A DNA stretch of 63,885 bases, the filler included, from Asterionella formosa (Eukaryota), in assembly GCA_002256025.1 (NCBI GenBank). It is 8 parts of 8 records of this genome, joined end to end, with 100 filler letters (N's around TTAATTAATTAA, not from the genome) between each part and the next. Parts side by side here need not be neighbours in the genome. Positions count along the whole stretch, not along the records: positions 1 to 26,694 come from NKIB01001646.1; 7 more parts are not named here. One strand, written 5' to 3'. The notes below the pieces were generated by a model, which saw nothing but the letters and a program-made list of their open reading frames with translations, made no database searches and was not told the DNA's origin. Both the position numbers and the translations under genes were made by a program. Shown here in pieces: positions 882 through 57,032 of this stretch. The first letter of the stretch is position 1. Each line of letters opens with the position of its first letter.

Positions 882-2885
882 ATGGCAAAGGAACTTGCTC
901 AAGAAACATCCAGTTGGTACATTTCGCACCAAGATCCATATGCGTCTCATAGTAGCAATATCAGGAACTTCCTTCGCGGGCCTGTGCTTGCGCTGACGTT
1001 GAGAATGCTCCTGGCACCAGAACACCAACTAGAGATGGAGCAGGCACCCCACGAGGACTCAGACCCAAACAGTTGGACGTCCTACTTGGCCAATGTCGCC
1101 ATAGAACAATGGACCAAGCACGACCAGGACGCATACGATAACCTAGAGAGACGGGCAAGGGCTAGGATGGATGGTTTTATCGCAGGATGCGCCTTGGCTG
1201 TACCGAACGACTTTGACGAAGTCCCCGGTGAAGCTCCGCGGTCCACTAAGAATCTTTTGCCCAACGGGACTGCCGCGCAACAGAAGGATGCCTCTATGGA
1301 TGCAGGCCTTGCTGGGTTCAAGAGCAACATGTATGGATCCCCTATTCTGCTCAATATTCCCGCGGCTCATTCATTGCGTAGAATAACAAGCACAGGCGCC
1401 AGCACCAACCAAACTCGCTGTCCTCAGTTTCATCATTATGAGCTCGCCACCAGACTCGAGTTGTATATTCGGTGCTTAAAACTCGTACGATCAATTGGAA
1501 AGGAAGTTATTGTAGATTTAGAATCACCAAAAGCCATCAAATCAAGAGCGAATGCCGTTGTGCGAAGCTTCGTTGCCACGGTTGGGTGCGTGCGAAGCAT
1601 GCGACCTTGTTTAACGCTACTGTTACAATGTTTGACCCGAGAGCTGCTTGCCGTCGACTCGCTTTGCAACGAAATTTCGAATGTAATTCGGCGATTGGTA
1701 TCGGAATACGAGCATCAGACTTCGTTCGCATCCTTGGCGTTTTTGTCGTCGCCAGAGGACTCGGCAGCGAACCGACTAACCCCTCTAGTTACTTCTTACC
1801 TTCAATACTTACGATCAAATTGGGAAATGATCGTCGAAGGTTGTGAAATAGAACGTATGTTGAGCAAAGTATTGCAGCCAGAGATGCGACATTTGTTCAA
1901 AACTATTGATTTTAAATCAATTGGGCACTTACTGGAAGTATGCCATGGCTTTCACAAGGAACTGCAGTCGATTGAATTACCTCCTGGTATTGGGGGGATA
2001 AGTGGCCAGAATGTTGACTCAGTATGTAGCAATTCCAAAGCGATCCAGCAAGCTATTCGAGATTTACAGCGTGAAGTAATTACAGTGAACGGACACATTC
2101 TTCCACCTGCCAATAGTCGCAAAGAATTGTTGCAACTTTTGTCGCAAATGTTGAACTCGCGTTCTCTTCTTACTACCAGCAATGGCAGACACAAGTCAAA
2201 GAAAAACGGTTTGACTCTTTCTCGCAAGTCCGTCAGTTGTCCATCTCTCATTATAAATGATACGAAGCAGAACCAAGAGCTGGATAGTGAAGGCTTCATT
2301 TCGTCTGGAAATGAAGGTGACACTGATGATGGCAATACGTACATAAGAAGGCCTGTGGAGGTATCACATAGAAATCGCCGGCGTAGTTTTCATGTCAGTA
2401 TGGTTGACTTGATGACAAGACGACTTTTGATTGCTTCAAGTCGAACTGGGATGGGTGGCGATGCATTTTTCATTGTTCGAGACTTATTTGGAGGTGATGA
2501 TGTCGAGGTTGTTCCGTCTCGTGCTGCAACTGCACATGGCCAGCCACGAGTCGGCACGATTGAAATCGTTGTTCGATTGGCCAGTGTGACTATCAAGTGT
2601 CATGGATCTTTGGATGTGTACCCCAAGTCTAGAATTGGCGACTGCGAACCGCTGATTCAACTTCATACGACAACGGCGGAAACTATTAGTTTACAAGAAG
2701 TACGTGCAAGTGATAGTGAGAGAGGGGAGGGGAAAATCGATGCTTACTCATCTGAGGAAGATGGGAATGATGAAGGATCAAAAATGGTTTTGCAAGAGAA
2801 GAAAAATGATCGCACTGGTTGGAGAACATTATCAATCAGTCCAGCCTTGTACGAAGCTGTGGAGAAGTGGACAACACCAAGTTAG
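882..2885 (+). CDS. Hypothetical protein, 667 aa, intronless
   Basis: Long uninterrupted ORF with protein-like composition; no domain recognised. Confidence 0.85.
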   Translation: MAKELAQETSSWYISHQDPYASHSSNIRNFLRGPVLALTLRMLLAPEHQLEMEQAPHEDSDPNSWTSYLANVAIEQWTKHDQDAYDNLERRARARMDGFIAGCALAVPNDFDEVPGEAPRSTKNLLPNGTAAQQKDASMDAGLAGFKSNMYGSPILLNIPAAHSLRRITSTGASTNQTRCPQFHHYELATRLELYIRCLKLVRSIGKEVIVDLESPKAIKSRANAVVRSFVATVGCVRSMRPCLTLLLQCLTRELLAVDSLCNEISNVIRRLVSEYEHQTSFASLAFLSSPEDSAANRLTPLVTSYLQYLRSNWEMIVEGCEIERMLSKVLQPEMRHLFKTIDFKSIGHLLEVCHGFHKELQSIELPPGIGGISGQNVDSVCSNSKAIQQAIRDLQREVITVNGHILPPANSRKELLQLLSQMLNSRSLLTTSNGRHKSKKNGLTLSRKSVSCPSLIINDTKQNQELDSEGFISSGNEGDTDDGNTYIRRPVEVSHRNRRRSFHVSMVDLMTRRLLIASSRTGMGGDAFFIVRDLFGGDDVEVVPSRAATAHGQPRVGTIEIVVRLASVTIKCHGSLDVYPKSRIGDCEPLIQLHTTTAETISLQEVRASDSERGEGKIDAYSSEEDGNDEGSKMVLQEKKNDRTGWRTLSISPALYEAVEKWTTPS

Positions 2886-4905
2886 CTGAAGCCATCAGCA
2901 TTTTTCTATTGAAGGTGTTGTGTTCAATACTTATAATAGAAATACGATATCAATAATAGAAGTCACTTCTGATGTACAGGTGCTTGAGGTAAGTGCTCCT
3001 TAGTAAAGTAGCCATTGCATTGTTTGCAGCTTGCTGCAGCCGGATCTTGTAGTGTGCTAAGAAACTTGTCTGTCGTACAACCATCATGGTGTTTAGACTG
3101 TTTGTTACATTGGCAGCAATTAATCAAGTGCTATATCCTCATTGGCAACCACCATGATCTTCATGGAGTGAGTGAGGAACATTTGTGTTCAAAATATGTA
3201 TTCATATAGCACAACAAATTGAGAATGATAAATTGAAATAAAAAGTTTCCAGTGATGTACCAGTATGGTAAATATACCCACATGTGCTACAAGCTAAGCA
3301 GGATGAATAAAGTTAATGCTACCCAGGATGCTCGAAGAAACATGGGGCACTATGATGGATCACATTAAGTGGAGGAACTCAGACTCAGTAGGTGGTGGAG
3401 AACACTTCCACATGGCAGAATTGTGGTGATCAAAATATGCAATGAGTATGGCAATAATTATATATACACCACCATTCTTCGTTTTTCTGAAGAGCAGTTC
3501 AACCTGGTGTTGTTGATTGTTGATCCTTTTCCAGAGTGGTTTGTTTGAGGGACACTTGATCAGACTAAGTCTCAATGGTCAGCAATGGAGTAGAGAAGAA
3601 ATTTTTTCCCACCCCCACCCTCAGGCATTTAAATTGGATACCTGGTCTGAGGTAACAACAAGTATTGCAGGTTTTCCAATGTTCAGGGGCAACATCATAT
3701 CAACCAAGGAAGTGGACAATTTTTCTGTCAATGAATAATCATTATCATTTCTATCCAAATTGTAGTTGTTAATGAATTCATTATCAGTAGGCTCATTTGC
3801 AACAATCAGAATCAATGGAGAATGGTCTGTTGACATAGAAGAAGAAGACATGGATGATATGTCATCCAGCTGTACTGTAGGATCAACAACAACAGCTGAA
3901 GGGAAAGCATGTTGGAAATTATGAGTTTTCGCTTGCGCCTGTTGTGCCTGTTGCAACTGTTGCATTGCACAGCATGAATTGGTCAGCCTGCACGATGTTC
4001 CCTTTGAAAAGTTATCCGGTTTTCAATTGTTCAAATCAGTTGTGTTGTCTATACAAGCATTGACACAATTAGAGTTGAACAGGCGATATTGTCTTTGTCA
4101 ATGATGAAGAGCGAGTTTTCATTGACAAGGAGACTGTTGATGAAAAGTATAGATAAACGATGTATACTTGTTGTTGAAAAGACTTTTTTGGTTTCCATTC
4201 TAGCGTAGTAATGTATTCATATTTGAAATACAAAGTAGCTTTTTGGCATTAAGATGGCAAACACACCAGTGCACAAGATTGCCTGTGCGTTGCAACACAC
4301 AAGATGGCACCACTAATCGCCCAAAAGCTGTGTATCTGTGTATTTCTGCCAATGATAAGTTATAGCTCTACATCACTGGGTATTTTATTACTGATCAGCA
4401 AAAAGACCAAGCACACGTGTTGGTAGGGTAAACCTGTATGTAACAGGATATCAGCAACATGCAGTAAATTTGCCAAAATCACGATTTCGTCATTGCAGAT
4501 ATTCTCACTTGCTGATCCAATACTTAAATAAATATTCTGGCCAGCTCGGACAGCAGTTATCTTTCAATCGTGGTAGGATTGTTAGTCAAAATTTCCTAGT
4601 TTTCCGGATTCCTAATTAAAGCTAAAACTTGTTTTCGCAGTTTCCCCGCGATTTTTGACGAGGTCAGTCAATAAAACCCTACTATAGTACTTTTTAGACA
4701 GACAATTTTGATTTGATACCCCTATTAATCAATTAACAGAACAAAGCTAGTGCCTCTCAAAAGACCATGATGGTAACTTTTGAGACTTTAATGGATCAAA
4801 AAACAACCTTTAAAGGCAACAGTACTGTTTGTTTGCCTTCATTGGAGACCATGTAAGATTGTTATAGTCATCGGAATAGGTTTGTCTGTAAAAAAAATAG
4901 GGTGT

Positions 4906-5232: not shown

Positions 5233-5383
5233 TATAAATATATATTTTTATTTTTATTTCATAAATACGTAAATACATAATGTAGCGAGCAAAGGCTGAT
5301 ACAACCAACAGTGATGAAGACCCTCCCTCCCTGTGTGAGTCCGTCGACACACCTAGCTTGAGTCAGCAACCGCGTACCGAACA

Positions 5384-7402
5384 ATGGCACATTCAGGCGC
5401 CCAACATCAGGGTGACGCGCACAGTGTAGCAAGCAAAATGAGCTCGACAACATCGTCGTCGAGGGCCAGTCCAATAAACAGCCGCCTCGAAGTTCCATCT
5501 GTGATTGGCAGCGTCACTCCTCTTCTTCCAGACACGAAACATCGCGCAGTCCATCAGATACGACTGTCAGCACTTACTCACAATTACCATTGCGTGGAAG
5601 CTGCAGCGAATAGGCAAAAGTGTTCTGTAATTGTCGTAGTTAAAGCAGATGGGTATGGGCATGGAGCTGTGGCTACGGCGATTCACTTGGCAGATTCAGC
5701 AGGAGCCGATGCATTTGCTGTTGCAACCTTGGAGGAAGCGATTGTTTTGAGAAAAGCATTTGAAACGACGCCTTTGGGAGGAGCGAAAGACTTGGTGAAC
5801 GGAACACGAAGAAGTGGTGGAGCTGCTACCAGCCAATTATCTTCGTTCTTTCAACCACCAGATATGGATGGAGCAGAGACTGTTTCTACTGTTGGTACTC
5901 GGATATCACAGCCAGAGCCGACGGAACCGAATCAACGTCCTCGAAATATTAGAATTTTGGTCATAGGGCCTCCCGTTGGATATCCTCGCTGTTTCGACGA
6001 TTACTTTTATTACAATATCGAACTAATGGTGTCAGGACCAGAAGTGGCATCAGCCTTGATGGCATGGGTTGCTGATGCTGATCAACGAAAGATGACTCTT
6101 GTTGAGCGAGCTGCTACAGAGTCAAAAGCACAAGCACTTTTGAACTTTACGATTAATCTTGGAAGCGAGGAAGAACCAACCGTTCGAGAAAACAAATCGG
6201 TTTCAGCTACATTATCGAATGTTTCGGGCCAGGACCTGGTTAACGAGGTTCGAAACTATCTCATTAAGCAAGAGAAAAATATGAAGCAATCGAAACCGAA
6301 TTCTAAATCCGGTAGTGGTAGATTGACGCCTGCAAATGGCAACCCAACTCCCTTCGTACCCAAAACACCGCCAAGCAACGAAAATCCAACTCTTAGCTTT
6401 GGTGGTATCGAAGCGGCTGCGAAGAACTCAAGGACGAGGGAGAAGGCGGTGAAGGCCAACGAAATATTTGTAGAAGAATCGACGGAAGTTTCCTCTCTTG
6501 CCCTTTCCACTATTACACACATGGCAGGTCGGGTAAAGCGCGTACTCAGATGGCATGCAGACGTTGAGAGTGGTATGGGTCGACTCGGTTTTAAGATAGA
6601 ACCAGTTCCTAATGGGGATACCACTGGAGCACGTGATACAGTCTCTATTTTGAGAGAACTGGTACTTGCTGAAGTTTGTGGGAATGCACCTTTGGAGTTT
6701 TATGGCATGTGCACACATATGGCAGAAGCGAAGTCAGAGTCAGACTTTACCAATGCTCAAATCGAACGCTTCAAGGGCTTGCTCAAGCGCGTTCGAGATG
6801 CTGGTATTTTGGTTCCTACTGTGAGCACAGACAATTCCGCTGCCTTACTTACAACAACGTTGACACACTTTGATCCCAACGAGCTTCTTTCACAGCCCGA
6901 AACGCCGACGCGTGGGTATGTTCGAACCGGAGGTGCTATTTACGGCCAACGGCCCGCGTTTTCCCAACTTCGAGCTGTTTCAACCTTAAAGGTGGCAGTC
7001 CGTCACGTGGCTATCATCCAACAAGGCGAGAGCGTAGGATACGATCGAGCCTACATTGCACCATATGAAGTTCGGATTGCGACCCTAACGATCGGTTTTG
7101 CCGATGGTTACCCTCGGGAGCTTGGAAATGGTGTGGGCATCGTGTCAATTCGAGGGGAAGTCTTTCCTGTGGTCGGAAACGTTTGTATGGATATGATTAT
7201 GGTTGAACTGGGTCCGGCCGAAGATTTGGGTATTGGATCTGATGTTGTTGTGGGAGATGTCGCTATTCTGTGGGGACCGGAAGACGACGAGGATGGCGAA
7301 GGTTTGGTGAGTCTGCAGTATCTTGCTACAAAGCTAAAGACCACACAATCTGCCATGACTTGTGGACTAGACAGGATTCGGGTGAACCGGTTGTTGATTT
7401 AA
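5384..7402 (+). CDS. alr: Alanine racemase (PLP-dependent, fold type III) with long insertions, 672 aa
   Basis: VVKADGYGHG PLP-lysine motif, FAVATLEEA, SGMGRLG, THMAEA, NSAA, VRTGGAIYG, GESVGY (catalytic Tyr), IGFADGYPR, VGNVCMDMIMV. Confidence 0.93.
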   Translation: MAHSGAQHQGDAHSVASKMSSTTSSSRASPINSRLEVPSVIGSVTPLLPDTKHRAVHQIRLSALTHNYHCVEAAANRQKCSVIVVVKADGYGHGAVATAIHLADSAGADAFAVATLEEAIVLRKAFETTPLGGAKDLVNGTRRSGGAATSQLSSFFQPPDMDGAETVSTVGTRISQPEPTEPNQRPRNIRILVIGPPVGYPRCFDDYFYYNIELMVSGPEVASALMAWVADADQRKMTLVERAATESKAQALLNFTINLGSEEEPTVRENKSVSATLSNVSGQDLVNEVRNYLIKQEKNMKQSKPNSKSGSGRLTPANGNPTPFVPKTPPSNENPTLSFGGIEAAAKNSRTREKAVKANEIFVEESTEVSSLALSTITHMAGRVKRVLRWHADVESGMGRLGFKIEPVPNGDTTGARDTVSILRELVLAEVCGNAPLEFYGMCTHMAEAKSESDFTNAQIERFKGLLKRVRDAGILVPTVSTDNSAALLTTTLTHFDPNELLSQPETPTRGYVRTGGAIYGQRPAFSQLRAVSTLKVAVRHVAIIQQGESVGYDRAYIAPYEVRIATLTIGFADGYPRELGNGVGIVSIRGEVFPVVGNVCMDMIMVELGPAEDLGIGSDVVVGDVAILWGPEDDEDGEGLVSLQYLATKLKTTQSAMTCGLDRIRVNRLLI

Positions 7403-12000: not shown

Positions 12001-13110
12001 ATAACTGTAGAATCATTGAAAATAGCCTTAAATTAATCGGAATTCACATGCATTATTTTCGATCCTTACGCTGGTACATGCGGGCCAAAAGTATATAGCA
12101 GCCAGTAGCTTCAGTAATTTGTACTGGTCTAGTAGGAATTGCCTTAAAAGAGTACTAGACAAAAGCTATATCTGAGTTTTGGTTACGAAGCTTTAGTTTA
12201 GTACTCGCCAGTATCAAAGGCAGGCTAAAATTCTAGATGCACGTTTGAAGCTCGAAAACTCGGACCACTTGTAGGGAGTACTGGATAGAAAGAAAAAGAA
12301 AGAAACGAGTTTGAGGAAGCACAAAGAAACGTCAGACCCATAATGGGACATGATGACAAACTAAATTCGCGAGCACAAGACAAGAAAGTAGGCACTGGAT
12401 GTGCATAATATCGACTGCTGGCCTCTTCGACTTAAGTAGCCGACCTGGGCCATTGCTCCAGCAATGCTCAATCATGACTCCAGACGTTCGGTCGTCATAC
12501 AGAAGTAATGTTTGTACACCTTTAGTACAGTTGGTTCGAATCGGTCGTCTCTCAATCGATAATTCATGGGAATTCACATGCATTGTCTTCAATACTTACG
12601 CTTGTTGCTTGCTTGTTACAAATATGATATAAGTATTGCATTGTGTCAATGCATATATCACGACAGTAGGATATACCAGTAGGCATTGCGTTGTGTGGAT
12701 GTGGGCTTAACTATGTATGGTACAGTTCATCCACATAGTTTAATAATATGTATATAGAAATAAAAATTCACCGTAATAGTATAACAACGTTAAATATATC
12801 CAGGAGCTCTAGCTACCAAAGTACCCGTAGATAACAAATAACTCGATGGACCTGACTCTTCCTTTATCCCCGCAACAAGCTTGGACTTGATCTCCAAGTA
12901 GCATAGTAGGGCAGGATCCGTATATCGCAACTGTACTAGGATATTGACATTGCATTGTTGTGCTGATGCATGATATATTACCATGCCGTCACTCATTGTT
13001 ATATTGAAGGTTTAACAGCAGCTATCACCTGTTTCATCATGTTGCACGTTTCTCATCATTATGTTAGGTTAACAACAGCGAACACACAGGACGTTATCAT
13101 TATATGTATA

Positions 13111-13326
13111 AAATATTAAATAAATTTTATAGTACGCTATTGTTAAAGAACTCGACATTGTGGAGGTTGTGAAGTCGCACTTGGCCCCCCAGAGGGCCTT
13201 AGACCTCCTGCTTGTTGTCTGCCTCACCACCCAGAACCCAAGGGACTACATAAACAAAGCAGGTGGAGAATGCTCCAATCAAACCCGCAACCTCGGCAGG
13301 TGAGCTAACCAACTAAGCTATTCCCC
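13111..13326 (-). mobile_element. tRNA-Ala-derived SINE-like element, copy 1 (216 bp)
   Basis: Minus strand GGGGAATAGCTTAGTTGG (A box)...GCGGGTTTGATT (B-box-like)...GCATTCTCCA; 17-bp flanking direct repeat ttatcattatatgtata (13094-13110) / ttttcactatatgtata (13327-13343), 15/17 identical; homologous to 16278-16514. Confidence 0.8.
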
Positions 13327-14106
13327 TTTTCACTATATGTATATATCCGATTTGTTTTTCTCTGTTGATCAATTATCGAAATCGGAAAAGGATTTTGGTG
13401 GTACACCAAGCCCTTCACTCATCCACTGTTCAGCCTTATTTTCAAATTGGCTCATTGACAAATTCCAAAAATGTAATGTAATGATGAGGATGAATCAGCA
13501 AGAAGTGAGAAACTTTCCACTTTTACACTTTCCAACCTAATGACAGCGACAAAAGATGGAAAAGCTTCTTAAAGCAGTAGAACAATCTTTTGTGACCTCA
13601 CACAGATCAGATTCATTTGAACTAGTTAATAACTCTCACCATTGCAGAATTTCCTATCCCAAGCAACACTATGGTGGATGACTGACATAGGGCATGATCA
13701 GTGATTTTAGAACTTTTTCTTTCGATTTCAAAATAAATTTTCGACTGTATTACCTTATTAAGGTTGTGCATTAGCAGCAGAGGTGCTTGTCTTAGAGTCA
13801 TGTACTGGAAGAAAATCATAGTATTTTTAACATTAAGAGCTAATGCTCGAAGGAGCGCATAGTATGGTCCCAATGATTCGTTGCATGCCTGCCAGACGAG
13901 ATAGGCCAGGTTTCGATGGAAATAATAATCCTTAAGTAAATCAGAAAAGCGTCACTCTTATTGACCGATGAAGATTTGCAGAATCAGTCTCTGAACACGA
14001 TTCGGATTTGCTGACTGATGAACCTACGTTCCCCAAACCGTCTTCTGGCTTCGTTATAAAAATAGGATTCATCTCTTTCAACGTTTAGAACTTGCTGGCA
14101 ATGACT

Positions 14107-14766
14107 GATGTTTCGATTTGTTTCTATATATTTAACGCTACAGTGTAGTTCTTGTGAGTGGCTGGAGACTCCTGCATCATGCCATCTCCACCTTGACCAT
14201 GTTGAAAATGGAGAATTTCTCCACGATAAAATGAGAATGATACTTTGCAATTGGGTACATATATCCAACACGACATAGATAATACAATTGTCAAACTATT
14301 AATGTAATTGACAACGAAAATTGAAGTCGCCGATGGCCATTTCTTCCTGTAGTTTAGACGATGCACAATTCAAAATGACGAAGTTACGCCGAGATTTAAC
14401 ACTTTCACAGTATGCAACACTCTACACTACTGCAATCTGTAGGTTAAACTAAATTTTTCTCGATTTTTTTAATTCTCCATATAACCATATCAATCATAGA
14501 CCATTGAAATTTTCAATATGTCTCTTTCGTTTAATGTTACTGAACCAGTTGGTGACTAGTACATATGACTAGAAATCTGCTGATAACGACTAGAACTTGC
14601 TGACAACGATAAGAGATTGCTCACTAAGACTAGAAGTTACTGATTGGTGAATTCCATTAATAAATCGTCTTCCAGTTGCTACCAGCTGTAGTAGGTGAAC
14701 ACGATTTCGATGATCAAAGCACGACTTGGATTCAATGATTGATGATTTAACATTATAGAACTTAAC
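14107..14766. repeat. Degenerate dispersed repeat (family R), inverted relative to 19150-19893; fragments at ~13880-13950, ~20220-20350, ~21640-21830, ~25680-25770
   Basis: Colinear reverse-complement similarity, e.g. gtgtagttcttgtg...ctcctgcatcatgcc; internal ~20-bp gactagaa...tgctga tandem units at 14565-14645 and 19345-19455. Confidence 0.75.
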
Positions 14767-14997: not shown

Positions 14998-16277
14998 ATT
15001 AACACACTGTTTCCTCAATTGCTTATTCCAAAATTATAAGCTTAACAAAATGTTTGCTTTCTATGCATCTTTGCTTCCCCCAAAGTCATTCTAAAAATCT
15101 CTTAGCGAATTTACACTTAACATTTCCATAGAAGTTTTCAATCTTTGATATAGTTAGATAGCTGATTGGCGTGGCAATGCATAATTCAATTTGTTGAATT
15201 ATATTTGACTCCACAATCCTCGTGACTCGAACTTGAAAAATTCTTGACAGCACCACACAGGAAACGAAAATAACTTGTATTGGAATCCAATACAAGGTGA
15301 AAAATAATTTACCAAAACAAAATTGACCTTGTATTGGGTAGCTTCATCGTTAGGGTTGCGAATCCGTGCTTTAGCCGATATAAGGAAATAGGCTCTTTTT
15401 CCCAATACAAGGTTTTTCACGAAATGACCGGATTTTTTCAATACAAGGTATGAATAGTTTACCCGAAATGGGGTTCAATACCCGATACAAGGTTTAACTT
15501 GTATTTTTTTACTATTTCGCATCCACCTTGTATTGGTTAACCAATCAGATCATCAGTTCCAATTGGAGGTATGCCTTGTTTTGGACATGCCCATACAAGG
15601 TGTACCTTGATTTTGACCCAATAAGCAAGTCATTTGCGAATCTCATTATTAAAGTATGAGGATAATCTTTTCAGGCTGGTAGCATAATTCTATATTCTTT
15701 TACCAACATTAATAGTTACTTTGCTACATTACTGACGATTCCTACAGCAATAGATAATTTCAGGAAATGTTTGAATCATCTGTTGGAAATCGAGCCCAAG
15801 CATTGCCATCATCGCAATTCACCAATCATTTACCAATCAATGCGTATTTGAGCTCTCTGAATGATGTTGACAGTGAATCCCTTCAATGACAGAAGCAAGA
15901 GCACAGTTGAGAAATAGCATGCACGAACAATGTAACAACAAAACCTTCACCAACTTGGACTACTTACATCATTTTGCATCAAACAACCGGAGCTGACTGT
16001 TTCCTTTCCAATCACTCAACAATTCACTGATTCATCAATTGCATCGAAAGGAGCATTAAAAGTGAGATGGCGTTTCTGAAGCAATCTTGATCTGAAAAGA
16101 ATCGCGATGATAGTTGAGAAATAACGCACAAGCAAGTTTTTGTTATGTCCAAGAAAATGGCAGGAACGGCATGCTACTATGGCGTGAAACAATTTCAAAA
16201 CAATTTCAATTCCTTTAATATTGCACCTTACCCATGATTGTAAGCATTCCCTGTTCAGCTGAAGACGATGAAACAGT

Positions 16278-16514
16278 CTGGAATGTTTTGATGGTTAGCA
16301 CACCCACTGTGGTGGCGGGTTCGATTCCTGCATTCTCTACCTGTCTTTTTATGTAGTCCCTAAGGTTCCGGGAGGTGCGGCAGACGAAAAGACAGGTCCC
16401 GTTGTACCGTACGGACGAATAAAACCGGTACTAATTGTGTCTATCTAGTTGGTGGGCCCGAGTGCAATTATTGGATAGCTTTAATGTACTATAAAATTTC
16501 ATTGACATTTTTTT
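16278..16514 (+). mobile_element. tRNA-Ala-derived SINE-like element, copy 2 (237 bp)
   Basis: Intact T-arm/B box GCGGGTTCGATTCCTGC then ATTCTCTA; perfect 19-bp TSD ctgaagacgatgaaacagt at 16259-16277 and 16515-16533; shares TGGTTAGC, TATGTAGTCCC, GGCAGAC, AGTGC and GTACTATAAAATTT with copy 1; ends in T7. Confidence 0.82.
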
Positions 16515-17412
16515 CTGAAGACGATGAAACAGTGAGAAATGGTTTCCGCACATCATTGTAAAGGATAAGAAATAACTTGGAGGTATCATTTTTGTTATTT
16601 CAATAAATTGCGTCGACTCAGTGATGATTTGTTCCCTGTATACTGTGCTATAGAATATAGTACAGAATAGTTTTAGGTACAAGATTCATATGCCAGCCAG
16701 ACAAAGAAATTGAAAGTATACATTACTGTATGATCATATGACATAAACCAAAAATGATGGCTTATATGATCAATACGCATTGCAGACCCATAGCCTAGCC
16801 GAATTTTGAAAGTATGCATTAATGAATGATCATATAATTGAAAAAACATTTTTATTTAATCAATATGCATTATTACTTTGATATCGTATGTACATTTGGT
16901 TGACCTTGAATTGCGAAATATTGTCACTTTGTATTGGAAATTTTGACCATGCATAGGGATGAGACTTAGTACTGCCAAAACCCAATACATGGGCAAACTT
17001 TATTGGAAAAAATTGTCACCTTGTATTGGAACTCATGACCTTGGATTGGGATGTGACGTAGTACAGCCAATACCCAATACAGGCGGGGCGACCTTGAATA
17101 GCAAAATGTCACCATCTTGTATTGGGAAATAAAGAGAGCCCATTACAGGGAATACCTTGTATTGGATGATATTCTCATGACAAATAAAGGAACACCTTGA
17201 ATTGGAGTGATACCTGGAGTTGTTTTTCACCTTGTATTGGACTTGACATACCGTCCTTTCGCCAACATTACAAGGTTAACCTTGTATTGGAATGGTATAT
17301 CACCTTGTATTGAAAAAATCAAATGGCCGATATCTTGTATTGGAAAACGTTGCGACGCCCAATACAAGGTATGCCTGGATTTTGAGGACCAAAACCGGTT
17401 GAAAACGTAGTA

Positions 17413-19149: not shown

Positions 19150-19893
19150 TCTCATGCCTGCTGGACGAGATAGACTGGCATTTCAATCCAAACTCTCTTA
19201 AGTAACTTTCTTCAATGTTAAATTAACATTCATTAAATCCAAGTCGTCTTCTGATACTCGAAATCGTGTTCACCTAGTACTCATAGGTAATGGTATTCAG
19301 CAACTGGATGACGGTTTGCTAATGGAATTTACTAATCAATAACTTCTAGTCGTAGTAGTCAGCAGTTTCTGGTCATAGTCAGCAGTTTCTACTTGTAGTC
19401 AGCAGTTTCTACTCGTAGTCAGCAAATTCTCGTCGCCATCATCTGGATTTCTAGTCGCATGTCCATGATCAGCTATCATAAACAAAGAGTTATTTTGAAA
19501 ATGTCAATGTACTATTAATGGACATTACTTAAATAGAGAATCAAACAAAATTTCGTTCGACCGACAGATCACCGTAGTGCAGCGAAAGTGTCAATTCTGT
19601 TTGTACTTTCGTCTTTTTGAATTGTGCATCATCTAAACTACGTAAAGCAATGCGCAATCAGCTTATTCAATTTTCGTTGTCAATATTAGTGTTATTGCAA
19701 TTATTCTTTTCGATTGTATTATTTATGTTATGTTGATATATTTATCGAATAGCGCAGTGTCGTTTTCATTTTCCATGTGAGAAATTCGTTATTTTCGGAA
19801 TGGTTAAACCAGAGACGGCATGATGCAGGATTCTCCAGCTACACACAAGAACTACACTATAGCGTTTAATATACAGAAAGAAATCGCAACCTC
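19150..19893. repeat. Degenerate dispersed repeat (family R), second long copy
   Basis: Reverse complement of 14107-14766 over ~650 bp, plus similarity to 13880-13950. Confidence 0.75.
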
Positions 19894-21407: not shown

Positions 21408-21966
21408 CTGGACCCCCCAATGTACACTGCCGTGACTGAATTTGACTGATTTTGCTTAAGGGGGAGGGGGGGCCAGGACAATGAAGAGATTTCCCTTATA
21501 ATGGACCTAAGTAAATTTCTTTAGTTCTACAGGATAGCGCACATTTTTCTAAGATGTTTTAACATGACAATTATTTCCGTCTTGTGAAAAAAGAGAGAGT
21601 TCTTCACCTCGCAAGAAAAACGCGACTTCATGTTGTTATCGGCGATCTCAATTTTCGTTGTCATTATTTGAGTTATTACTTTACTTCTTTTACGATTGTA
21701 TTTTCCATGTTGTTCTTAATACAGGTAGCAAGTAGCAAAGCGTCGTTCTCTATTTTCGTGGAGATATTTCGTATTTTTGTCATGGTCAAGGTTGCGACAA
21801 CATCATGAAGGATTCTCCAGCTGCTCACAGCCACTACCTGTCGTCTGTGGGGTCCAGCAACCATTGGGGGGGGGGGGCCAGNNNNNNNNNNACCCCCCAA
21901 TGTACACTGCCGTGACTGAATTTGACTGATTTTGCTTACGGGGGAGGGGGGTCCAGGACAATGAAG
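21408..21966. repeat. MITE-like element with ctgg(a)cccccc-aatg / catt-G(n)-ccag ends, plus a 75-bp direct repeat across a 10-N gap
   Basis: 21412-21486 repeated at 21892-21966 with 2 mismatches; inverted terminus at ~21862-21881. Confidence 0.5.
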
Positions 21967-26694: not shown

Positions 26695-26794
26695 NNNNNN
26701 NNNNNNNNNNNNNNNNNNNNNNNNNNNNNNNNNNNNNNTTAATTAATTAANNNNNNNNNNNNNNNNNNNNNNNNNNNNNNNNNNNNNNNNNNNN
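26695..26794. other. Artificial contig spacer (N44-TTAATTAATTAA-N44); same spacers at 28436-28535, 55194-55293, 56933-57032, 58672-58771, 60410-60509, 62148-62247
   Basis: Identical 100-nt spacer whose 12-mer gives stops in all six frames. Confidence 0.97.
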
Positions 26795-28435: not shown

Positions 28436-28799
28436 NNNNNNNNNNNNNNNNNNNNNNNNNNNNNNNNNNNNNNNNNNNNTTAATTAATTAANNNNNNNNN
28501 NNNNNNNNNNNNNNNNNNNNNNNNNNNNNNNNNNNGATTTGTGGTAAGTGAAGCAAGAGGATACGATGGAATTGCGTGTCGTTGTTTCAATGTAACATGA
28601 CTACTAGCTAACAAATCATTCCTTCTCATTGTTTCTGTAACTGCATAGGACCATAAAACCAATCAAACAACGGAATAGTCGGCGAGTTCAGAGTGACACT
28701 AACAGCAGGGAAAGAGACGTAACATTAGTAGGCCCTGCCTGACACATGATTCAGAATAGAGGAAGGAAAGGACAAGACAGGAACAATATACATTGAGAA

Positions 28800-36367: not shown

Positions 36368-37067
36368 GTAGTGACAGTTTACTAGCAGTATTACCTATAC
36401 ACCGGTACCGGTAGTCATGTCTGATATGTACTCCATATCTATCGTCTGTCATAGATTTTTATGTCTCATTTAATTGATAGCTTTGTTTTCCATTTCTTTC
36501 TGGTTTGCCTATGTACCGGTCAGTTTGTTTCTGTTGTTTGTGTAGAGCGCGCAAGGACGAACGAAAGCAACAATGATGCATCATGATGTACCCAAGGTAT
36601 CTACTATGATGGTACCGGCCGTAATACTATACATTTTTCGCGGAATAATAATAAAATGATGCTATGATATAGACCGGTAATACATACGACATTCTCGATA
36701 TCAGTGTGTACAGGCCTTACTAATATATTGCCCCAGAAAACCAGTGTGGTACGCAGATGGACATAAATATATACCGGTATAACATAGAATATAGACTACA
36801 AGTACCAGGTCCCTGTAGTTTACGTCTTGCCAACTACCAGTACCGATACTTACAGTACGTACACAAACTAGACCAGTAATTTATTCTCACCATCTTGCGT
36901 GATGAGCAATGAATGCTTCATGATGCGATCCTCAGGATATACGGTATACCTATACATAAAATATGTACTACCGGTATCCATAAATAGACACACCAGGAAC
37001 GTCAAAGGAAACAAAAGCAATCAATTTGTTATAATCATCATTCCTTGTCATTTGTGTTCCATCAACC

Positions 37068-38054
37068 ATGACAGCATCTACTACTACTGTCCCAACTTCC
37101 TTTGGACGTGGAACAGTTACTATTCAATGTAATAGTAGTAGTATATGTAACAACAATCCAACAACACATTCATTATTAATTGTGACATTGAACCGTCCCA
37201 AGGTCAAGAATGCAATGAACGATCACGTGTATTTAGATTTATTGGATTGTATGGAGTTGGTACTATCCAACAATAACAACTATGCTGGAATACTTTTGAC
37301 AGGAACCGGTGATTACTTTAGCAGTGGTGCAGATTTAACCTCCAGTCATGACGTTGTTGTCACCACAAATGATACTCATGACAACGATACAACAGACACT
37401 ATCAGTACCTTACAACATCGTCCTGCTGGTCAATTTATGAAACAATGGATATCCTTTCCTAAATTAAAATGTGCTGCAGTGAATGGTCCAGCCATTGGGA
37501 TTGCTGTGACATTATTATTTCATTGTGATTTAGTATGGTGTTCAGGAATGGCAACATTTTGGACACCCTTTGCACGTTTGGCATTGGTACCAGAATTATG
37601 TTCCTCAGTTACCATGGTGGAAACTATGGGCATATCCAAAGCCAATGAATTGTTATTATTGGGAAGAAAGATTGATGCAACGACAGCATTGAATTGGAAT
37701 ATTGTAAGTCGTGTTGTGGATATTGCTGATTATACTACTGCTACTACAATTCAGCAGCAGGAGCAGTCCTTGGCCATGATCATGGCACATGACATTACAT
37801 CCAATTTATTATCCTTGGTCCATAGTGATGGCACGATTGCAGTATTTTGTCAATTGATTCGAGGAAAGTCAAGAATGGAGCGATTGCAACGTATTTGTGA
37901 AGAAGAATTAATTGAATTGGACAAGAGAATGATGGCAGGCGAATGTTTGGAAGCTGCTATGCAATTACATCTTGGAAAGAAGAAGAGAAGTGGTACTAGT
38001 ACAACTACTACTACTGATAGTGAGGAACATTTTCATCAGCAGAGCAAGTTGTAA
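37068..38054 (+). CDS. ECI2: Peroxisomal enoyl-CoA delta isomerase (crotonase fold, ECI2-like), 328 aa
   Basis: LNRPKVKNAMN, YFSSGADL, AAVNGPAIGIAVTLLFHCDLV, FWTPFARLALVPE; C-terminal SKL (PTS1). Confidence 0.88.
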   Translation: MTASTTTVPTSFGRGTVTIQCNSSSICNNNPTTHSLLIVTLNRPKVKNAMNDHVYLDLLDCMELVLSNNNNYAGILLTGTGDYFSSGADLTSSHDVVVTTNDTHDNDTTDTISTLQHRPAGQFMKQWISFPKLKCAAVNGPAIGIAVTLLFHCDLVWCSGMATFWTPFARLALVPELCSSVTMVETMGISKANELLLLGRKIDATTALNWNIVSRVVDIADYTTATTIQQQEQSLAMIMAHDITSNLLSLVHSDGTIAVFCQLIRGKSRMERLQRICEEELIELDKRMMAGECLEAAMQLHLGKKKRSGTSTTTTTDSEEHFHQQSKL

Positions 38055-39570: not shown

Positions 39571-41295
39571 TCACATTTCAGAATTTTTATCTGGTCCCCA
39601 TGTTCGTGGTGCACACCTGATGCTCTTAACAGTGGCATTCTCAACATCAGCAACAAATTCAGGTACTTGTCCAGCCTGCAAAGCCTTGAAATACACACCA
39701 ACCTTTGTACCAATAGTCGAACAAAGCTGCGCCCCACCTGTCACAGCCGCATCATAGTGCAAACCACCGTTGAGACGAGAAATTCCACAGCGATCAGCAA
39801 CTTGACTCCATGTATCCCAGGTTAAGGTAAAATTGGCTGCGGGTTTTCCACTTTCGTAGGTAGAAGATCCACTAATGATAGGTACATTTAAAGGTCCACC
39901 TAAAGCAGCCAAAACACTATCGGATCCAGTTAATTCAATCATCCCCTTCGCGAATGCTGTGCAAACGCAAGCGCTTCCAGAAGGGAAGTCGGAGTGGGGC
40001 ATTACACGAACATATCCTTTCCAATCTTTCGCGGGAATCCATCCGGCAATCATTTCTTTGTTTCCCAAATATGAGAAAACCTTTTGACTCCCAAATTTTT
40101 TGTTGACGTATGTGGTTGGACGGACACGATCATGAAATACTTTTTCTTTCCATGCCACAATGACGCTTTCGTAAGCTGCGCCGAAAATGGCAGCATCCAG
40201 TTGGATGAACTCAAAGCTATCCAGACTGATATTTCTTCTCTGAAAGTACTGAACCTCAAGGAGACCAAGAGATGTCAGCTTAGCTAGGGTCGAAATATTC
40301 AACTTCTGCTTTGGTGACATCCGTTAAGTTTGCCATGCGTGCCAAACTTAGCTTGGATGCAGTTACATAATCGAAAGTTGGCGATGGCAAGAAGCGACTA
40401 CAAATGTCGGTGTCCCCGAGGAAGAAGGACTTGGCAGAAGCGCCAATGTGAGGGACAACGTGCCGCTGATTAACGAGGTAACCGTATGCATCCTCAGTCA
40501 AAGGCTCCCAGCATTCCAAATCAGTGCAAGTCCTGGGTGCGTAGGGAATAGGCCTCCAGTCCTCGTAGGGAACAAGATTGTACTCGCGCGACAGCTTGCC
40601 GTCGGCATTCCACCCATCCTTGGCGAAGATGTCGATGGCATCGTCAACAAGCGAACGCGCCAATCCCCAGGGAGTAGTAATATCGGCACAGCTGCGAGTA
40701 GCGCAAATGTTAAGATCTACCTTCCAAGTTTCAGCAAGCCCTGTCAACGCACTTTGGACAGTAGGAACGAATGCTCCAAATCCCCAGAGGGTCGCATATG
40801 CAAGCGTGAGAGTTCTGTGTTGATTATACAAAGACTGACTAAAGATATTGGATGGCTGGCAGCGACGACGCGCTGTGCTGACGCTTGTGCGACCAAACAT
40901 TTCCAAAGCCTGGGGATGGAAGGCTGCTGCTGTTCCATAAACAGACGAAACCGAAGCAAGGAGGAGTCGAAACAAAATCGGGGTTTCATAAACTCCAAAG
41001 CCCGGCTTCACAGCCAACATTTCTGAAATCGTGGTCTGTTAAAGCAGTGGTGCGACAGGAGACAAGTTAGAGCTCGCAACTCGGCTCGACAACTATACAG
41101 AGCGGCATTTTTGCTGTAACATACACCGAAAATGCCCAAAGTCGCTCCATCAAAGTTGTAATCGCTGTAAATCACACCGTTGCTGTCGCCTATTCCAGTG
41201 GGAGTAATGCATTGACCGTTCTGAGCGTGGCCACCACTCAGAAGGATGGACACCAATAAAAATTGAAGGAAGGAAGGATACCGGCAAGTTTTCAT
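39571..41295 (-). pseudogene. Secreted vanadium-dependent haloperoxidase-like gene (DUF6851/PAP2-type) with one intron (41036-41124) and a frameshift at ~40281-40286
   Basis: Signal peptide; GTATGT...CTAAC...AACAG 89-bp phase-0 intron joins IFG|TTISEM; vanadate motifs WKEKVFHDRVRP, HSDFPSGS, SRLNGGLHY; removing 4 nt at TAGCTA gives a 543-aa frame reading EYFDPKLTSLG. Confidence 0.8.
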
Positions 41296-48190: not shown

Positions 48191-49459
48191 TTATTTGCAT
48201 ACTCCACTTTTACAAAGATGTTGTAATCCTTGAAAATTCATATTTTTTCGTTTTTTCTTCACCGTTATTAAGGAGCTATTATTCCCCTGTTGCTGGTTAC
48301 CACTACTCGCCGTCAACAACAACAATGATTGTGGAGCATCGTTGGTATTGCTGATATTCATTTTCTTCACATTTTTGTTGTTGTTGGATGGATGCAGCTC
48401 CCATACATCTTGTGTTAATGCATCGGCACATTCCTTCCATTCCTTGTCACCACATTGCTTCGGAAACAATTGCATCCCAAGGACAGTCTCCAAATCACTC
48501 CATTGTACTAAATAATCATGCAATTGTTTCTTTGGATCTGGTTCTTGATTTGGAATGACAAAGCACGCGAACTTACAAACAACACTATTATGATAAGGCA
48601 TGGTAGTGATGGTTTTTGTTGTAGTAGGAATTGTTGTTGTTGTTGTAGGGTGGTGGTGGTTGACAACAACAATAATAACTTTGAAAAAATGTGTTGGCAC
48701 TGAAATAATAGTTGGAGGTGTCCCAATCGCAGGATATTGATATTCTCCCCAATGAATTGTGGGCAACCATAGTGGACCAGTGACAACGTAAGTTTCCATC
48801 TTACTACTACTACTACTACTATTATTTGTAGTAGTAGTAGCAGTACTATTATTGTTATTATCATCATCATCATCATTAAACTCATGAGTGGATGTTGTTG
48901 CTGCGACACGACGGACCCATCCTTCCAAACTGGCCCAAAGTGTACGATTCAATGTAGATTGTTGTGGACAAATGTTGGTTAATACAAACGTATCTTTTTG
49001 TTGTTTTGTACCATCCATTGCATCAAAATCAGCAGCAGGTGCCATATGACCACGATCATATCCAGAAAATTTATAGTGTGAATTTCGTGAACGAAACATT
49101 TCTGGTAGCGAAAGCTCTTCATAAAAGTGTGGTCGACGACGGTGATTGGCAGACACATGTTGTTGTTGTTGTTGTTGTTGTTGTGAGGGTAGACGTACTA
49201 CTACTGGTACTACTATCCTCTCCAAGGCATACACTGGAGTACGTGTACGTGCATCGTAGGCTATTTGAAGATTTGGATTCGGTTGAAAAATCGTAATGGG
49301 AAGTGTTGGTGCCATGTCGGATAATAAGTGGCCATTTTGATTCATAGAAGGATGATGATGATGATCATCATCATCATCAATGCTATTGGATGCGATGGTT
49401 GGGAGTGAGAAAATCGAACCTACCCATCGATGAAAGAAATTGGTGATGCGAAGAGACAT
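48191..49459 (-). CDS. ENDOG: DNA/RNA non-specific endonuclease (endonuclease G family), 422 aa
   Basis: YDRGHMAPAAD (DRGH), TFVLTNICPQ, LNRTLWASLE, VVTGPLWLP, VPTHFFKV, FACFVIPN. Confidence 0.9.
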   Translation of the reverse strand: MSLRITNFFHRWVGSIFSLPTIASNSIDDDDDHHHHPSMNQNGHLLSDMAPTLPITIFQPNPNLQIAYDARTRTPVYALERIVVPVVVRLPSQQQQQQQQHVSANHRRRPHFYEELSLPEMFRSRNSHYKFSGYDRGHMAPAADFDAMDGTKQQKDTFVLTNICPQQSTLNRTLWASLEGWVRRVAATTSTHEFNDDDDDNNNNSTATTTTNNSSSSSSKMETYVVTGPLWLPTIHWGEYQYPAIGTPPTIISVPTHFFKVIIVVVNHHHPTTTTTIPTTTKTITTMPYHNSVVCKFACFVIPNQEPDPKKQLHDYLVQWSDLETVLGMQLFPKQCGDKEWKECADALTQDVWELHPSNNNKNVKKMNISNTNDAPQSLLLLTASSGNQQQGNNSSLITVKKKRKNMNFQGLQHLCKSGVCK

Positions 49460-51773: not shown

Positions 51774-52433
51774 GGTGGTCGTAGTGGCTAAATGCTTCGG
51801 CTATCGAGTGACAGATGAAGCATAACCTAATGTAGTTCGATGATAAATTTTGTTTTTAACATTATTAATTAATGAATAATACATACACTTATTTTGTGAG
51901 CTGAATACACATTATAGTAAGTACACCGTATCACTACAATCAATGATCATTTAAAAATACCCGTATATATTATTATGCACCGGTACCTGGTACCAGGTAT
52001 TATCAACTGGAGAACACATACCCGTAGAAAGCGAATGGTGAAGCATCCACATACAAATACCGGTATGGTGAACTGACCAAAATGGAGCGAATGGGACAAA
52101 TCGTGGTCCTACGTCGCCTGGTCTGTGCAGCGTACGCAAAACAGAACTTTTATGGATGAAATTGCAAATGATAGATTTGTCTCCTTCATTTACGGTAACC
52201 TTGCAAGCAATCTGTTCCAATATTCCCAGACTTGGTCCAAAGCAAGTCAGAAAGAGAAAATGGATCATTGGAATTTATTATAACTATCTACCGGTATTCA
52301 AAGGAATGGCTTAGTGGTTTAGCTACCTAAAAGAGTGCAAATGAGATATTACCGGTATTTCCATGAAATCACAACGATCACGCGTGAAATGCATGACGAG
52401 TTGAAACAAGGAGGACTACCGGTAAGCAATAAC

Positions 52434-56932: not shown

Positions 56933-57032
56933 NNNNNNNNNNNNNNNNNNNNNNNNNNNNNNNNNNNNNNNNNNNNTTAATTAATTAANNNNNNNNNNNN
57001 NNNNNNNNNNNNNNNNNNNNNNNNNNNNNNNN

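What the first reader, a model, noticed from the sequence alone, without database searches (positions are those of the whole stretch)
13207..13326. SINE head is a ~63-nt anticodon-less alanine-acceptor tRNA mimic with hairpins that covary between copies
Seen: the copy 1 head GGGGAAT.../ATTCTCC-A forms a 7-bp acceptor stem with a G3:U70 wobble and A73. The anticodon arm is replaced by a mini-hairpin that covaries (CCT-gccg-AGG vs CCA-ctg-TGG). Copy 2 has an intact T-arm, while the copy 1 T-stem is disrupted. The following long stem also covaries (CCTGCTT/AAGCAGG vs CCTGTCTTTT/AAAAGACAGG), as does a further GG(C/T)CC/GGGCC stem around loops of different length. Known: G3:U70 is the AlaRS identity element, and anticodon-less tRNA-like domains occur in tmRNA and mascRNA. 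Inference: RNA structure was maintained during family divergence, and the RNA might be processed by RNase P/Z or alanylated. Only two sequences support this.
Basis: partly seen in the sequence, partly recalled or inferred. Interest (0 to 1): 0.72.

Follow-up and report, generated by a model that had tools for sequence, protein, structure and literature searches.

The report
Diatom SINE with shrunken tRNA head
This is one copy of a short, highly repeated jumping element (SINE) of a freshwater diatom, and its front end is an alanine-tRNA-like sequence that has lost its anticodon and most likely serves as the element's built-in promoter rather than as a working tRNA mimic.

Summary
The feature is real and lies on the minus strand. 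Window 13111-13326 is a 216-nt tRNA-derived SINE with a 17-nt target-site duplication. A second copy lies at 16278-16514 and has a perfect 19-nt duplication. Contigs from three DNA runs pile up on the element at about 130-450 times the flanking depth. The host is a diatom.

The 63-nt head has a 7-bp acceptor stem with G3:U70 and A73, plus A- and B-box matches. Against a real tRNA-Ala it shows a single 10-nt gap that removes the anticodon. The copy-1 T-stem break is private to that copy. With the family-majority letters the head folds as a four-arm mini-cloverleaf.

The long stem after A73 has two both-sided changes among 4 sequences. The third stem is not conserved.

No tRNA, mascRNA or tmRNA model reaches its threshold. 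A73 is followed by CC in 5 of 5 sequences, which is a known RNase Z antideterminant. No specific transcript was seen.

Verdict: an ordinary SINE, but a new family in a lineage where SINEs are barely described. Processing or alanylation of the head is unsupported.

The parts
13111..13326 (-). SINE copy 1, whole element (216 nt)
   Evidence: Its borders are set by a 17-nt target-site duplication. Contig pieces laid on it run 13109/13110 to 13327, and contigs turn unrelated (agreement 0.44-0.5) beyond 13326.
13327..13343 (-). Target-site duplication of copy 1, upstream copy
   Evidence: By my reading, 15 of 17 bases are identical to 13094-13110.
13094..13110 (-). Target-site duplication of copy 1, downstream copy
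13264..13326 (-). 63-nt tRNA-like head. Acceptor 5' strand 13320-13326, D-like arm 13304-13318, mini-hairpin 13289-13302, T arm 13272-13288, acceptor 3' strand 13265-13271, A73 equivalent 13264.
   Evidence: With the family-majority letters it folds as a four-arm mini-cloverleaf.
13309..13320 (-). Box A-like Pol III promoter element (TAGCTTAGTTGG)
   Evidence: Read from the sequence. It is unique in the window with up to 3 mismatches allowed. The box A consensus is recalled, not from a call.
13275..13285 (-). Box B-like element. It is degenerate in this copy (GGTTTGATTGG) and reads GGTTCGATTCC in copy 2, L001-L003 and the contig majority.
13262..13263 (-). C-C directly after the discriminator A. 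These are the first two pairs of the next helix and an RNase Z antideterminant-type dinucleotide.
   Evidence: Present in 5 of 5 sequences and paired C-G, C-G in 4 of 4. The rule comes from passages of PMC11649783.
13207..13263 (-). Long-stem domain: an outer helix of 6-11 bp around a conserved core
   Evidence: Pairs 5 and 6 are changed on both sides between copy 1 and copy 2/L002.
13111..13206 (-). 3' body and tail of copy 1. The body differs from the copy-2 type, but the last ~26 nt of tail are shared.
   Evidence: tail 84.6% identical over 26 nt.
16278..16514 (+). SINE copy 2 (237 nt): head 16278-16339, long-stem domain 16340-16396. T runs lie at element positions 9 (T4), 69 (T5) and 231 (T7).
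16259..16277 (+). Target-site duplication of copy 2, upstream copy (19 nt)
   Evidence: 19 of 19 identical to 16515-16533.
16515..16533 (+). Target-site duplication of copy 2, downstream copy
52303..52328 (+). 26-nt fragment resembling the 5' part of the head (weak match)
   Evidence: 85% over 27 nt, E 0.043; nhmmer E 0.4.

Best explanation
Window 13111-13326 (minus strand) is one decayed copy of a high-copy, tRNA-derived SINE family of a freshwater diatom.

The 63-nt head is an alanine-type tRNA that lost about 10 nt: the anticodon loop and the 3' strand of the anticodon stem. What remains is the acceptor stem with G3:U70 and A73, a D-like arm carrying box A, and a T arm carrying box B. A new 4-5-bp hairpin has formed between the old 5' anticodon-stem strand and the old variable-loop bases.

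The head's main job (inferred) is to act as the internal RNA polymerase III promoter that travels with the element. Transcripts would start at or near G1, run through the long-stem domain, body and tail, and stop at the terminal T run. The 3' tail would be used by a LINE reverse transcriptase for target-primed reverse transcription, which leaves the 17-19-bp target-site duplications.

The alanine identity marks are inherited, not evolved for mimicry. The C-C after A73 is paired into the next helix. It probably helps keep RNase Z from cutting the promoter head away from the body. Stem conservation between subfamilies reflects selection on the few master RNAs that could still be copied. Individual copies such as copy 1 then decay neutrally.
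For: SHOWN.
1. It is an interspersed repeat. Summed contig depth on the element against its flanks is about 484,000 versus 1,000-2,600 in X1, 38,900 versus 142-300 in X3 and 3,127 versus 16.7 in X5. 53-100 distinct contigs of X1 carry each listed majority letter. This is no exact copy number.
2. It has target-site duplications: 19 of 19 for copy 2 and 15 of 17 for copy 1.
3. The 5' border is sharp at G1. Contigs become unrelated beyond 13326 in 16 (X1), 10 (X5), 16 (X3) and 6 (X17) loose ends.
4. L003 is a 5'-truncated copy.
5. The elements are 216 and 237 nt long, and the two subfamilies share a tail.
6. GGTTCGATTCC is present in 4 of 5 sequences and in the contig majority. TGGCTTAGTGG is present in L001.
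7. A single 10-column gap separates the heads from a real tRNA-Ala.
8. No insertion in that place appears among the listed indels.
9. The family-majority head folds as a mini-cloverleaf: -24.9 kcal/mol, z -2.7 against mononucleotide shuffles. The L002 head does so too.
10. Four of the six copy-1 departures from the majority fall in paired positions, so that copy is decaying.
11. The host is a diatom. All named relatives of the neighbouring enoyl-CoA isomerase ORF are diatoms, at 43-49% identity.

INFERRED: Pol III transcription, the LINE partner and protection from RNase Z (rule).
Against: - No LINE was found in the window. Among the 15 ORFs scanned with Pfam (of 25 ORFs of 150 aa or more), the only reverse transcriptase is a Copia-type RVT_2. 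No genome is held, so the partner and the shared tail are untested.
- No discrete transcript was seen.
- Copy 2 carries T4 and T5 runs inside the element, which would stop Pol III in many eukaryotes. The T5 run is matched by an A run on the other strand of the stem, so it looks ancestral to that subfamily.
- The acceptor stem and the mini-hairpin stem are kept across subfamilies although no promoter box needs them. Something beyond the promoter may therefore constrain the head.
- The alanine assignment rests on the acceptor stem. With the 31 distinct tRNAs of one bacterial genome as stand-ins, the 5' half scores no better for Ala(TGC) (11.0) than for Val(TAC) (12.0).
Confidence: 0.8

Rival explanations
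1. The head is released from the SINE RNA by RNase P and RNase Z, receives CCA, and acts as an anticodon-less alanine-acceptor mini-tRNA (mascRNA- or tmRNA-TLD-like), possibly alanylated. Its shape is kept by selection for that role.
For: - G3:U70 is present in 4 of 4 heads and A73 in 5 of 5.
- The T arm is intact in the family majority.
- The L002 and family-majority heads fold as a mini-cloverleaf.
- The L001 head gives sub-threshold matches to tmRNA (16.4 bits, E 4.6e-4) and to mascRNA-menRNA (17.6 bits, E 2.9).
- L002 differs from the family majority mostly in unpaired positions: 2 of 9 differences fall in stems, P 0.014, post hoc.
Against: - Both Rfam matches lie far below gathering (47 and 42.5 bits), and nothing reaches gathering in the window.
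- 0 of 20 head pairs covary.
- The other two comparisons show no sparing of stems: L001 4 of 9 differences in stems (P 0.20), copy 2 7 of 13 (P 0.33).
- A73 is followed by C-C-U in 5 of 5 sequences. That is the antideterminant pattern for eukaryotic RNase Z, and it is sequestered in a helix.
- Cutting there would separate the promoter from the tail and end retroposition, yet the family has amplified.
- RNA-library contigs show no excess over DNA runs.
Confidence: 0.07
2. The repeat is not LINE-dependent. It is instead a solo LTR or non-autonomous LTR retrotransposon carrying a tRNA-like sequence, of the Helenus type.
For: Such elements exist and carry A and B boxes in their LTRs (passages of PMC10886601). 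The only reverse transcriptase among the 15 ORFs scanned in the window is Copia-type.
Against: - The target-site duplications are 17 and 19 bp, not 4-6 bp.
- The element starts at G1 of the tRNA-like part and ends in a T run, with no TG...CA ends.
- L003 is a 5'-truncated copy.
- No second LTR lies nearby.
Confidence: 0.02
3. It is a degenerate tRNA pseudogene lying next to an unrelated repeat, or a MITE-type DNA element.
For: The head alone occurs in L001 without the body.
Against: - Head, stem domain and tail are co-linear in copy 1, copy 2 and L002 and sit inside one pair of target-site duplications.
- No terminal inverted repeats were seen in my reading of the element ends.
Confidence: 0.02

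Closest known systems
tRNA-derived SINEs in general (head with A and B boxes, body, LINE-related tail)
   Same: It is short, non-coding and highly repeated. It has a tRNA-like 5' head with A and B boxes, a modular body and tail, 5'-truncated copies and long target-site duplications.
   Different: The head is 63 nt, not ~73 nt. It looks like the product of one clean 10-nt deletion and still folds as a four-arm mini-cloverleaf. The host is a diatom. The two genome papers read in passages report only 13 'putative SINE' copies in P. tricornutum and RepeatModeler-level SINEs in C. cryptica.
Rodent ID elements / BC1 RNA (a SINE family derived from tRNA-Ala; recalled, not tested here)
   Same: The parent is an alanine-type tRNA, so the acceptor-stem marks are carried along as baggage.
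   Different: It is an unrelated lineage and sequence. No comparison was run because no sequence of that family was available from a tool.
mascRNA / MEN-beta tRNA-like RNA (Rfam RF01684)
   Same: It is a tRNA-like fold with a reduced anticodon arm. The L001 head gives a weak model match of 17.6 bits.
   Different: The score is far below the gathering value of 42.5. mascRNA lies at the 3' end of a long Pol II transcript and is released by RNase P and RNase Z (recalled). Here the tRNA-like part is at the 5' end of a repeat and is followed by an RNase Z antideterminant.
tmRNA tRNA-like domain (Rfam RF00023)
   Same: It has an alanine-type acceptor stem with G3:U70, a T arm and no anticodon. The L001 head scores 16.4 bits, E 4.6e-4.
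   Different: The score is below the gathering value of 47. It has no tag reading frame, is not bacterial or organellar, sits in a multi-copy element and is not split around a long insert.

Membership tests
tRNA-derived SINE | Internal Pol III promoter: box A and box B in a tRNA-like 5' head | tested here: met
   TGGCTTAGTGG (L001) and TAGCTTAGTTGG (copy 1) match box A. GGTTCGATTCC is present in copy 2, L001-L003 and the contig majority. The consensus motifs themselves are recalled.
tRNA-derived SINE | Dispersed, high copy number | tested here: met
   Summed contig depth is 130-450 times the flanks in three DNA runs, and 2276 contigs were laid in X1. There are two copies in the window plus three in metagenome contigs.
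tRNA-derived SINE | Target-site duplications of variable sequence, with 5'-truncated copies | tested here: met
   19 of 19 and 15 of 17; L003 is 5'-truncated.
tRNA-derived SINE | 3' tail shared with a partner LINE | not testable with these tools
   No genome is held. None of the 15 ORFs scanned in the window matches a LINE reverse transcriptase or endonuclease. The tail is shared between the two subfamilies.
tRNA-derived SINE | Transcribed by Pol III as a discrete RNA | tested here: inconclusive
   Only contigs were available. The SINE-to-flank ratio in RNA-library run X17 (about 95-180) is like that of the DNA runs, and its contigs cross the element's borders.
tRNA / tRNA-Ala gene (Rfam RF00005) | Detected as a tRNA; anticodon arm present | tested here: not met
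   ARAGORN finds 0 genes in the window. Rfam at gathering gives 0 matches. At E up to 10 no tRNA-clan match falls on the copy-1 head, and the best clan matches on other heads score 7.9-16.4 bits against a tRNA gathering score of 29. A 10-nt gap removes the anticodon.
Alanine-type parent tRNA | G3:U70 and A73 in a 7-bp acceptor stem | tested here: met
   G:U is present at 3:70 in 4 of 4 heads and A73 in 5 of 5.
Alanine-type parent tRNA | Best overall match to tRNA-Ala among isotypes | tested here: inconclusive
   The test used 31 distinct tRNAs of one bacterial genome as stand-ins. Full length: Ala(TGC) 25.9 against the next best 17.4, but that gene had been found with a pattern taken from the SINE. 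5' half only: Val(TAC) 12.0, Ala(TGC) 11.0. No diatom nuclear tRNA set was available.
mascRNA-menRNA (RF01684) | Covariance-model score at or above gathering | tested here: not met
   17.6 bits against 42.5, on L001 only. There is no such match on either window copy.
tmRNA tRNA-like domain (RF00023) | Covariance-model score at or above gathering; tag reading frame | tested here: not met
   16.4 bits (L001) and 7.9 bits (copy 2, L003) against 47. ARAGORN finds no tmRNA.
AlaRS substrate (charged mini-tRNA) | Free 3' end at A73 plus CCA, produced by RNase Z and the CCA-adding enzyme | not testable with these tools
   There are no raw small-RNA reads. The sequence argues against it: C-C-U follows A73 in 5 of 5, which is the antideterminant rule quoted in PMC11649783.

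The most novel reading that the evidence does not exclude
The master RNA of this diatom SINE family is a two-part molecule. Its 63-nt head would be a genuine anticodon-less mini-tRNA(Ala) handled by the tRNA machinery: RNase P, modification enzymes, La or exportin-t, and after some 3' processing the CCA-adding enzyme and AlaRS. That would make it the first SINE-borne, mascRNA-like tRNA mimic in a protist. The evidence does not exclude this. The stems of the mini-cloverleaf are kept across subfamilies without any promoter reason, and the next helix keeps pairing through two both-sided changes.
Probability: 0.06. Interest if true: 0.65.

Novelty: new member of a known kind. Interest (0 to 1): 0.3.

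Why it matters
SINEs were long thought to be missing from most unicellular eukaryotes. The diatom genome papers read here say so, and they report only a handful of putative copies. A clearly bounded SINE with hundreds of copies in a bloom-forming freshwater diatom would give diatom genomics several things: a defined family for repeat annotation, a marker system for strains and populations, and a handle on the still unknown LINE partner. The head is also a tidy natural example of how far a tRNA can be trimmed while keeping a Pol III promoter and a cloverleaf-like fold. It suggests a testable idea: the CC after the discriminator shields SINE RNA from RNase Z. The tRNA-mimic idea itself adds little unless a processed head RNA is found.

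Tried and rejected
- First metagenome pattern, from the conserved core: 0 matches.
- Four viral-contig scans: 0 matches.
- First genome-contig scan: 0 matches.
- Second genome-contig scan: 7 loci. I read six as chance matches in bacterial DNA (nhmmer hits of only 22-38 positions around the pattern). One is a real Bacteroidia tRNA-Ala, used as comparator.
- The window's genome is not held.
- The earlier-findings index held nothing on this genome or sequence. The word search returned only phage and bacterial alanine-tRNA mimics from other genomes, which were not used.
- Two protein-atlas look-ups did not place the host.
- nhmmer and BLAST in the window found no further copies beyond a weak 26-nt fragment.
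- MAFFT misplaces gaps in the 5' strand of the long stem. The RNAalifold result (2 of 17 pairs compensatory, -2.47 kcal/mol) was set aside, and pairs were counted from the two ends instead.
- Isotype assignment with bacterial stand-ins was inconclusive.
- RNA contigs of X17 cover the SINE, but this is no evidence of expression. Parts of the flanks without RNA cover are not evidence either.
- Literature searches found no paper on charging or RNase Z processing of SINE heads and no described diatom SINE family. Four SINE-structure or tRNA-like searches were made and two diatom searches. Only listings and passages were read.
- The mollusc SINE paper PMC4758252 holds none of my six search terms.
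- PMC3242629 is not held.
- Supplementary tables of PMC5859163 (its TE annotation) were not seen and may hold P. tricornutum SINE sequences.

Full report
WHAT IS THERE

The finding lies on the minus strand. Read 5' to 3' from 13326, the sequence starts with GGGGAAT. It then runs through a D-like arm, a short hairpin and a T-like arm, then ATTCTCC, then A at 13264. Next comes a 57-nt stem-loop domain (13263-13207) and a further 96 nt.

The element is bounded by a 17-nt direct repeat, 13327-13343 and 13094-13110, with 15 of 17 bases identical. That makes it 216 nt long (13111-13326).

It is 78% identical to copy 1 over 119 nt and 84.6% identical over the last 26 nt. It is flanked by a perfect 19-nt duplication. 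BLAST and a profile search find no other copy in the window, apart from a weak 26-nt head fragment at 52303-52328.

IT IS A HIGH-COPY INTERSPERSED REPEAT OF A DIATOM

- No genome is held for the window.
- The stretch 12600-14000 is held by 20 of the 24 runs listed. Eight of them hold half or more of its words. They are labelled freshwater, lake, riverine or algae metagenomes.
- I laid the contigs of three DNA runs and one RNA-library run at 80% likeness or more. Summed contig depth jumps exactly over the element. In X1 it is about 230,000-484,000 against 1,000-2,600 in the flanks. In X3 it is 18,000-38,900 against 142-300. In X5 it is 1,477-3,127 against 16.7. The tool warns that this is no copy number, so I take it as 'hundreds'.
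- Contigs become unrelated just beyond 13326, so G1 is the family's 5' border. A second, unrelated high-copy repeat begins at 13868.
- A neighbouring ORF, an enoyl-CoA isomerase at 37035-38054, has only diatoms among its named relatives: Epithemia, Mayamaea, Seminavis, Fistulifera, and Nitzschia- and Leptocylindrus-labelled transcripts, at 43-49% identity.

MORE COPIES

The first metagenome pattern found nothing. The second found three loci:
- L002, a full copy of the copy-2 type;
- L003, a 5'-truncated copy;
- L001, from a marine assembly, which has the head plus about 12 nt and then unrelated sequence.

Four scans of viral contigs gave nothing. The first scan of prokaryote genomes also gave nothing. 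The second gave seven loci, one of them a real Bacteroidia tRNA-Ala(TGC).

THE HEAD

Aligned with that real tRNA-Ala, all four heads show one contiguous 10-column gap. The gap removes the anticodon loop and the 3' strand of the anticodon stem. The 3' part of that comparison is similar by construction, because the gene was found with a pattern taken from the SINE.

What is left folds as a four-arm mini-cloverleaf:
- an acceptor stem of 7 bp;
- a D-like arm of 3 bp;
- a CACC(U)/(A)GGUG hairpin of 4-5 bp;
- a T arm of 5 bp with a 7-nt loop.

This is the minimum-energy fold of the L002 head. It is also the minimum-energy fold of the copy-1 head once the six contig-majority letters are put in: -24.9 kcal/mol, z -2.7 against mononucleotide shuffles.

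Those majority letters (X1) restore the T stem at 13274 (62% of depth, 53 contigs), 13275 (97%, 75 contigs) and 13276 (87%, 65 contigs). They restore the canonical box B at 13281 (72%) and the fifth pair of the mini-hairpin at 13289 (90%). The broken T stem of copy 1 is therefore a private decay.

No insertion in the anticodon place is among the listed indels, although single-contig indels are listed there.

IS THE STRUCTURE MORE THAN INHERITANCE?

On four heads the mini-cloverleaf pairs 87.5% of 80 cells, against 45-52.5% when partners are slid. However, 0 of 20 pairs change on both sides, and 103 of 500 column shuffles pair as well. RNAalifold gives 0 of 17 compensatory pairs and a covariation term of -0.06.

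In homologous columns copy 2 and L001 have C opposite T there, and the CCA/TGG pairing uses a register slid by one base.

Differences from the family-majority head fall mostly outside stems for L002 (2 of 9 in stems, P 0.014, post hoc). They do not for L001 (4 of 9, P 0.20) or copy 2 (7 of 13, P 0.33). Single-sequence energies are unremarkable, with z from -0.5 to -2.0.

The long stem after A73 does better. All four sequences form 6-11 bp. Pairs 5 and 6 read C-G, U-A in copy 1 and U-A, C-G in copy 2 and L002. L003 has U-G at pair 6. That is two both-sided changes in four sequences: suggestive, but not a statistic.

The third stem is not there. Its 3' partner reads GGGCA in L002 and L003, and the body of copy 1 after the long stem does not align with the other copies.

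KNOWN RNA FAMILIES

- ARAGORN finds no tRNA or tmRNA in the window.
- Rfam at gathering finds nothing.
- At E up to 10 the copy-1 head matches no tRNA-clan family.
- Copy 2 and L003 match only 17 nt of the tmRNA T arm, at 7.9 bits.
- L001 matches tmRNA at 16.4 bits (gathering 47) and mascRNA-menRNA at 17.6 bits (gathering 42.5).

These weak matches reflect the generic alanine-type acceptor plus T arm. They do not show membership.

PARENT tRNA

G3:U70 is present in 4 of 4 heads and A73 in 5 of 5, which points to alanine.

I tested this with the 31 distinct tRNAs of one bacterial genome as stand-ins. At full length Ala(TGC) is best, 25.9 against 17.4, but that comparison is biased by how the gene was found. 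On the independent 5' half, Val(TAC) (12.0) and Ala(TGC) (11.0) tie. The alanine origin is likely but rests on the acceptor stem.

PROCESSING AND CHARGING

The RNA-library run X17 covers the element at 390-676 against 3.7-7.1 in the flanks. That ratio is like those of the DNA runs. Its contigs cross the element's borders or embed other copies in longer records. This is no evidence for a discrete SINE RNA. Contigs cannot show ends in any case.

A73 is followed by C-C-U in 5 of 5 sequences. For eukaryotic RNase Z, a C at the first trailer position and a C or U at the second form the antideterminant that stops cleavage. I read this in passages of PMC11649783, which cites Mohan 1999 and Nashimoto 1997. 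That work is on human enzymes; diatom enzymes are untested. The same two C's open the next helix.

Cutting there would also sever the promoter from the tail. I therefore read the CC-plus-hairpin as protection of the full-length RNA. This is an inference.

MECHANISM

My reading is a Pol III-transcribed, LINE-dependent SINE. The repeat structure, borders, duplications, promoter-box matches and 5' truncation are shown. Pol III transcription, the LINE partner and the RNase Z shielding are inferred.

Two open points remain:
- Copy 2 carries T4 and T5 runs inside the element. The T5 run is matched by an A run across the stem. This sits badly with Pol III unless this diatom needs longer terminators.
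- None of the 15 ORFs scanned in the window matches a LINE. The only reverse transcriptase is a Copia-type RVT_2.

An LTR-type element with a tRNA-like sequence (passages of PMC10886601) is rejected on the 17-19-bp duplications and the element's ends.

NOVELTY

The two diatom genome papers I read in passages report 13 'putative SINE' copies in P. tricornutum and RepeatModeler-level SINEs in C. cryptica. Both note that SINEs were thought absent from most unicellular eukaryotes.

My searches found no described diatom SINE family. They also found no report of a charged or RNase Z-processed SINE head. Only listings and passages were read, and supplements were not seen.

This is a new member of a known kind, with a neat trimmed head. 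The tRNA-mimic reading stays a long shot.

Noticed in passing
window 26695-26794, 28436-28535, 55194-55293, 56933-57032, 58672-58771, 60410-60509, 62148-62247: Seven identical 100-base blocks of N runs around TTAATTAATTAA. I recall this as a six-frame stop linker; no call tested that. The window would then be several contigs strung together, some only about 1.6 kb long. The 'tandem' and 'inverted' repeats that the repeat finder reports there are these blocks. Both SINE copies lie in the first piece (1-26694), which also holds a 10-N gap at 21882-21891.
   Followed up: yes
window 13868-14000 and beyond: A second, unrelated high-copy repeat starts sharply at 13868. Depth is about 75,000-218,000 in X1 against 1,000-2,000 just before it. 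It may continue into the 159-nt inverted repeat pair 14107-14265 / 19735-19893. Its family was not determined.
   Followed up: no
L001:362-436: A marine-metagenome contig carries a well-kept head plus about 12 nt and then unrelated, coding-looking sequence. This may be a truncated copy or a different element using the same head module.
   Followed up: partly
window 16286-16289 and 16346-16350: Copy 2 has a perfect 19-nt duplication, so it looks young. Yet it carries T4 and T5 runs inside the element, and its box A region is degenerate. The T5 run is paired with an A run in the stem. This is odd for a Pol III template.
   Followed up: partly
window 5357-7402, 39571-41038, 48191-49459, 53165-54301: Long open frames with alanine racemase, vanadium chloroperoxidase-like, non-specific endonuclease and alginate lyase domains lie in a diatom contig. 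These are possible genes of bacterial origin.
   Followed up: no
window 56985-58715: A Copia-type retrotransposon fragment (RVT_2, integrase, SH3-like domain) lies on one of the short joined pieces.
   Followed up: no
window 16400-16440; L002 and L003 equivalents: The copy-2-type body has a further hairpin, GTACCG...CGGTAC. In L003 it reads GTACCA...TGGTAC, a both-sided change. This was seen by eye and not tested.
   Followed up: no
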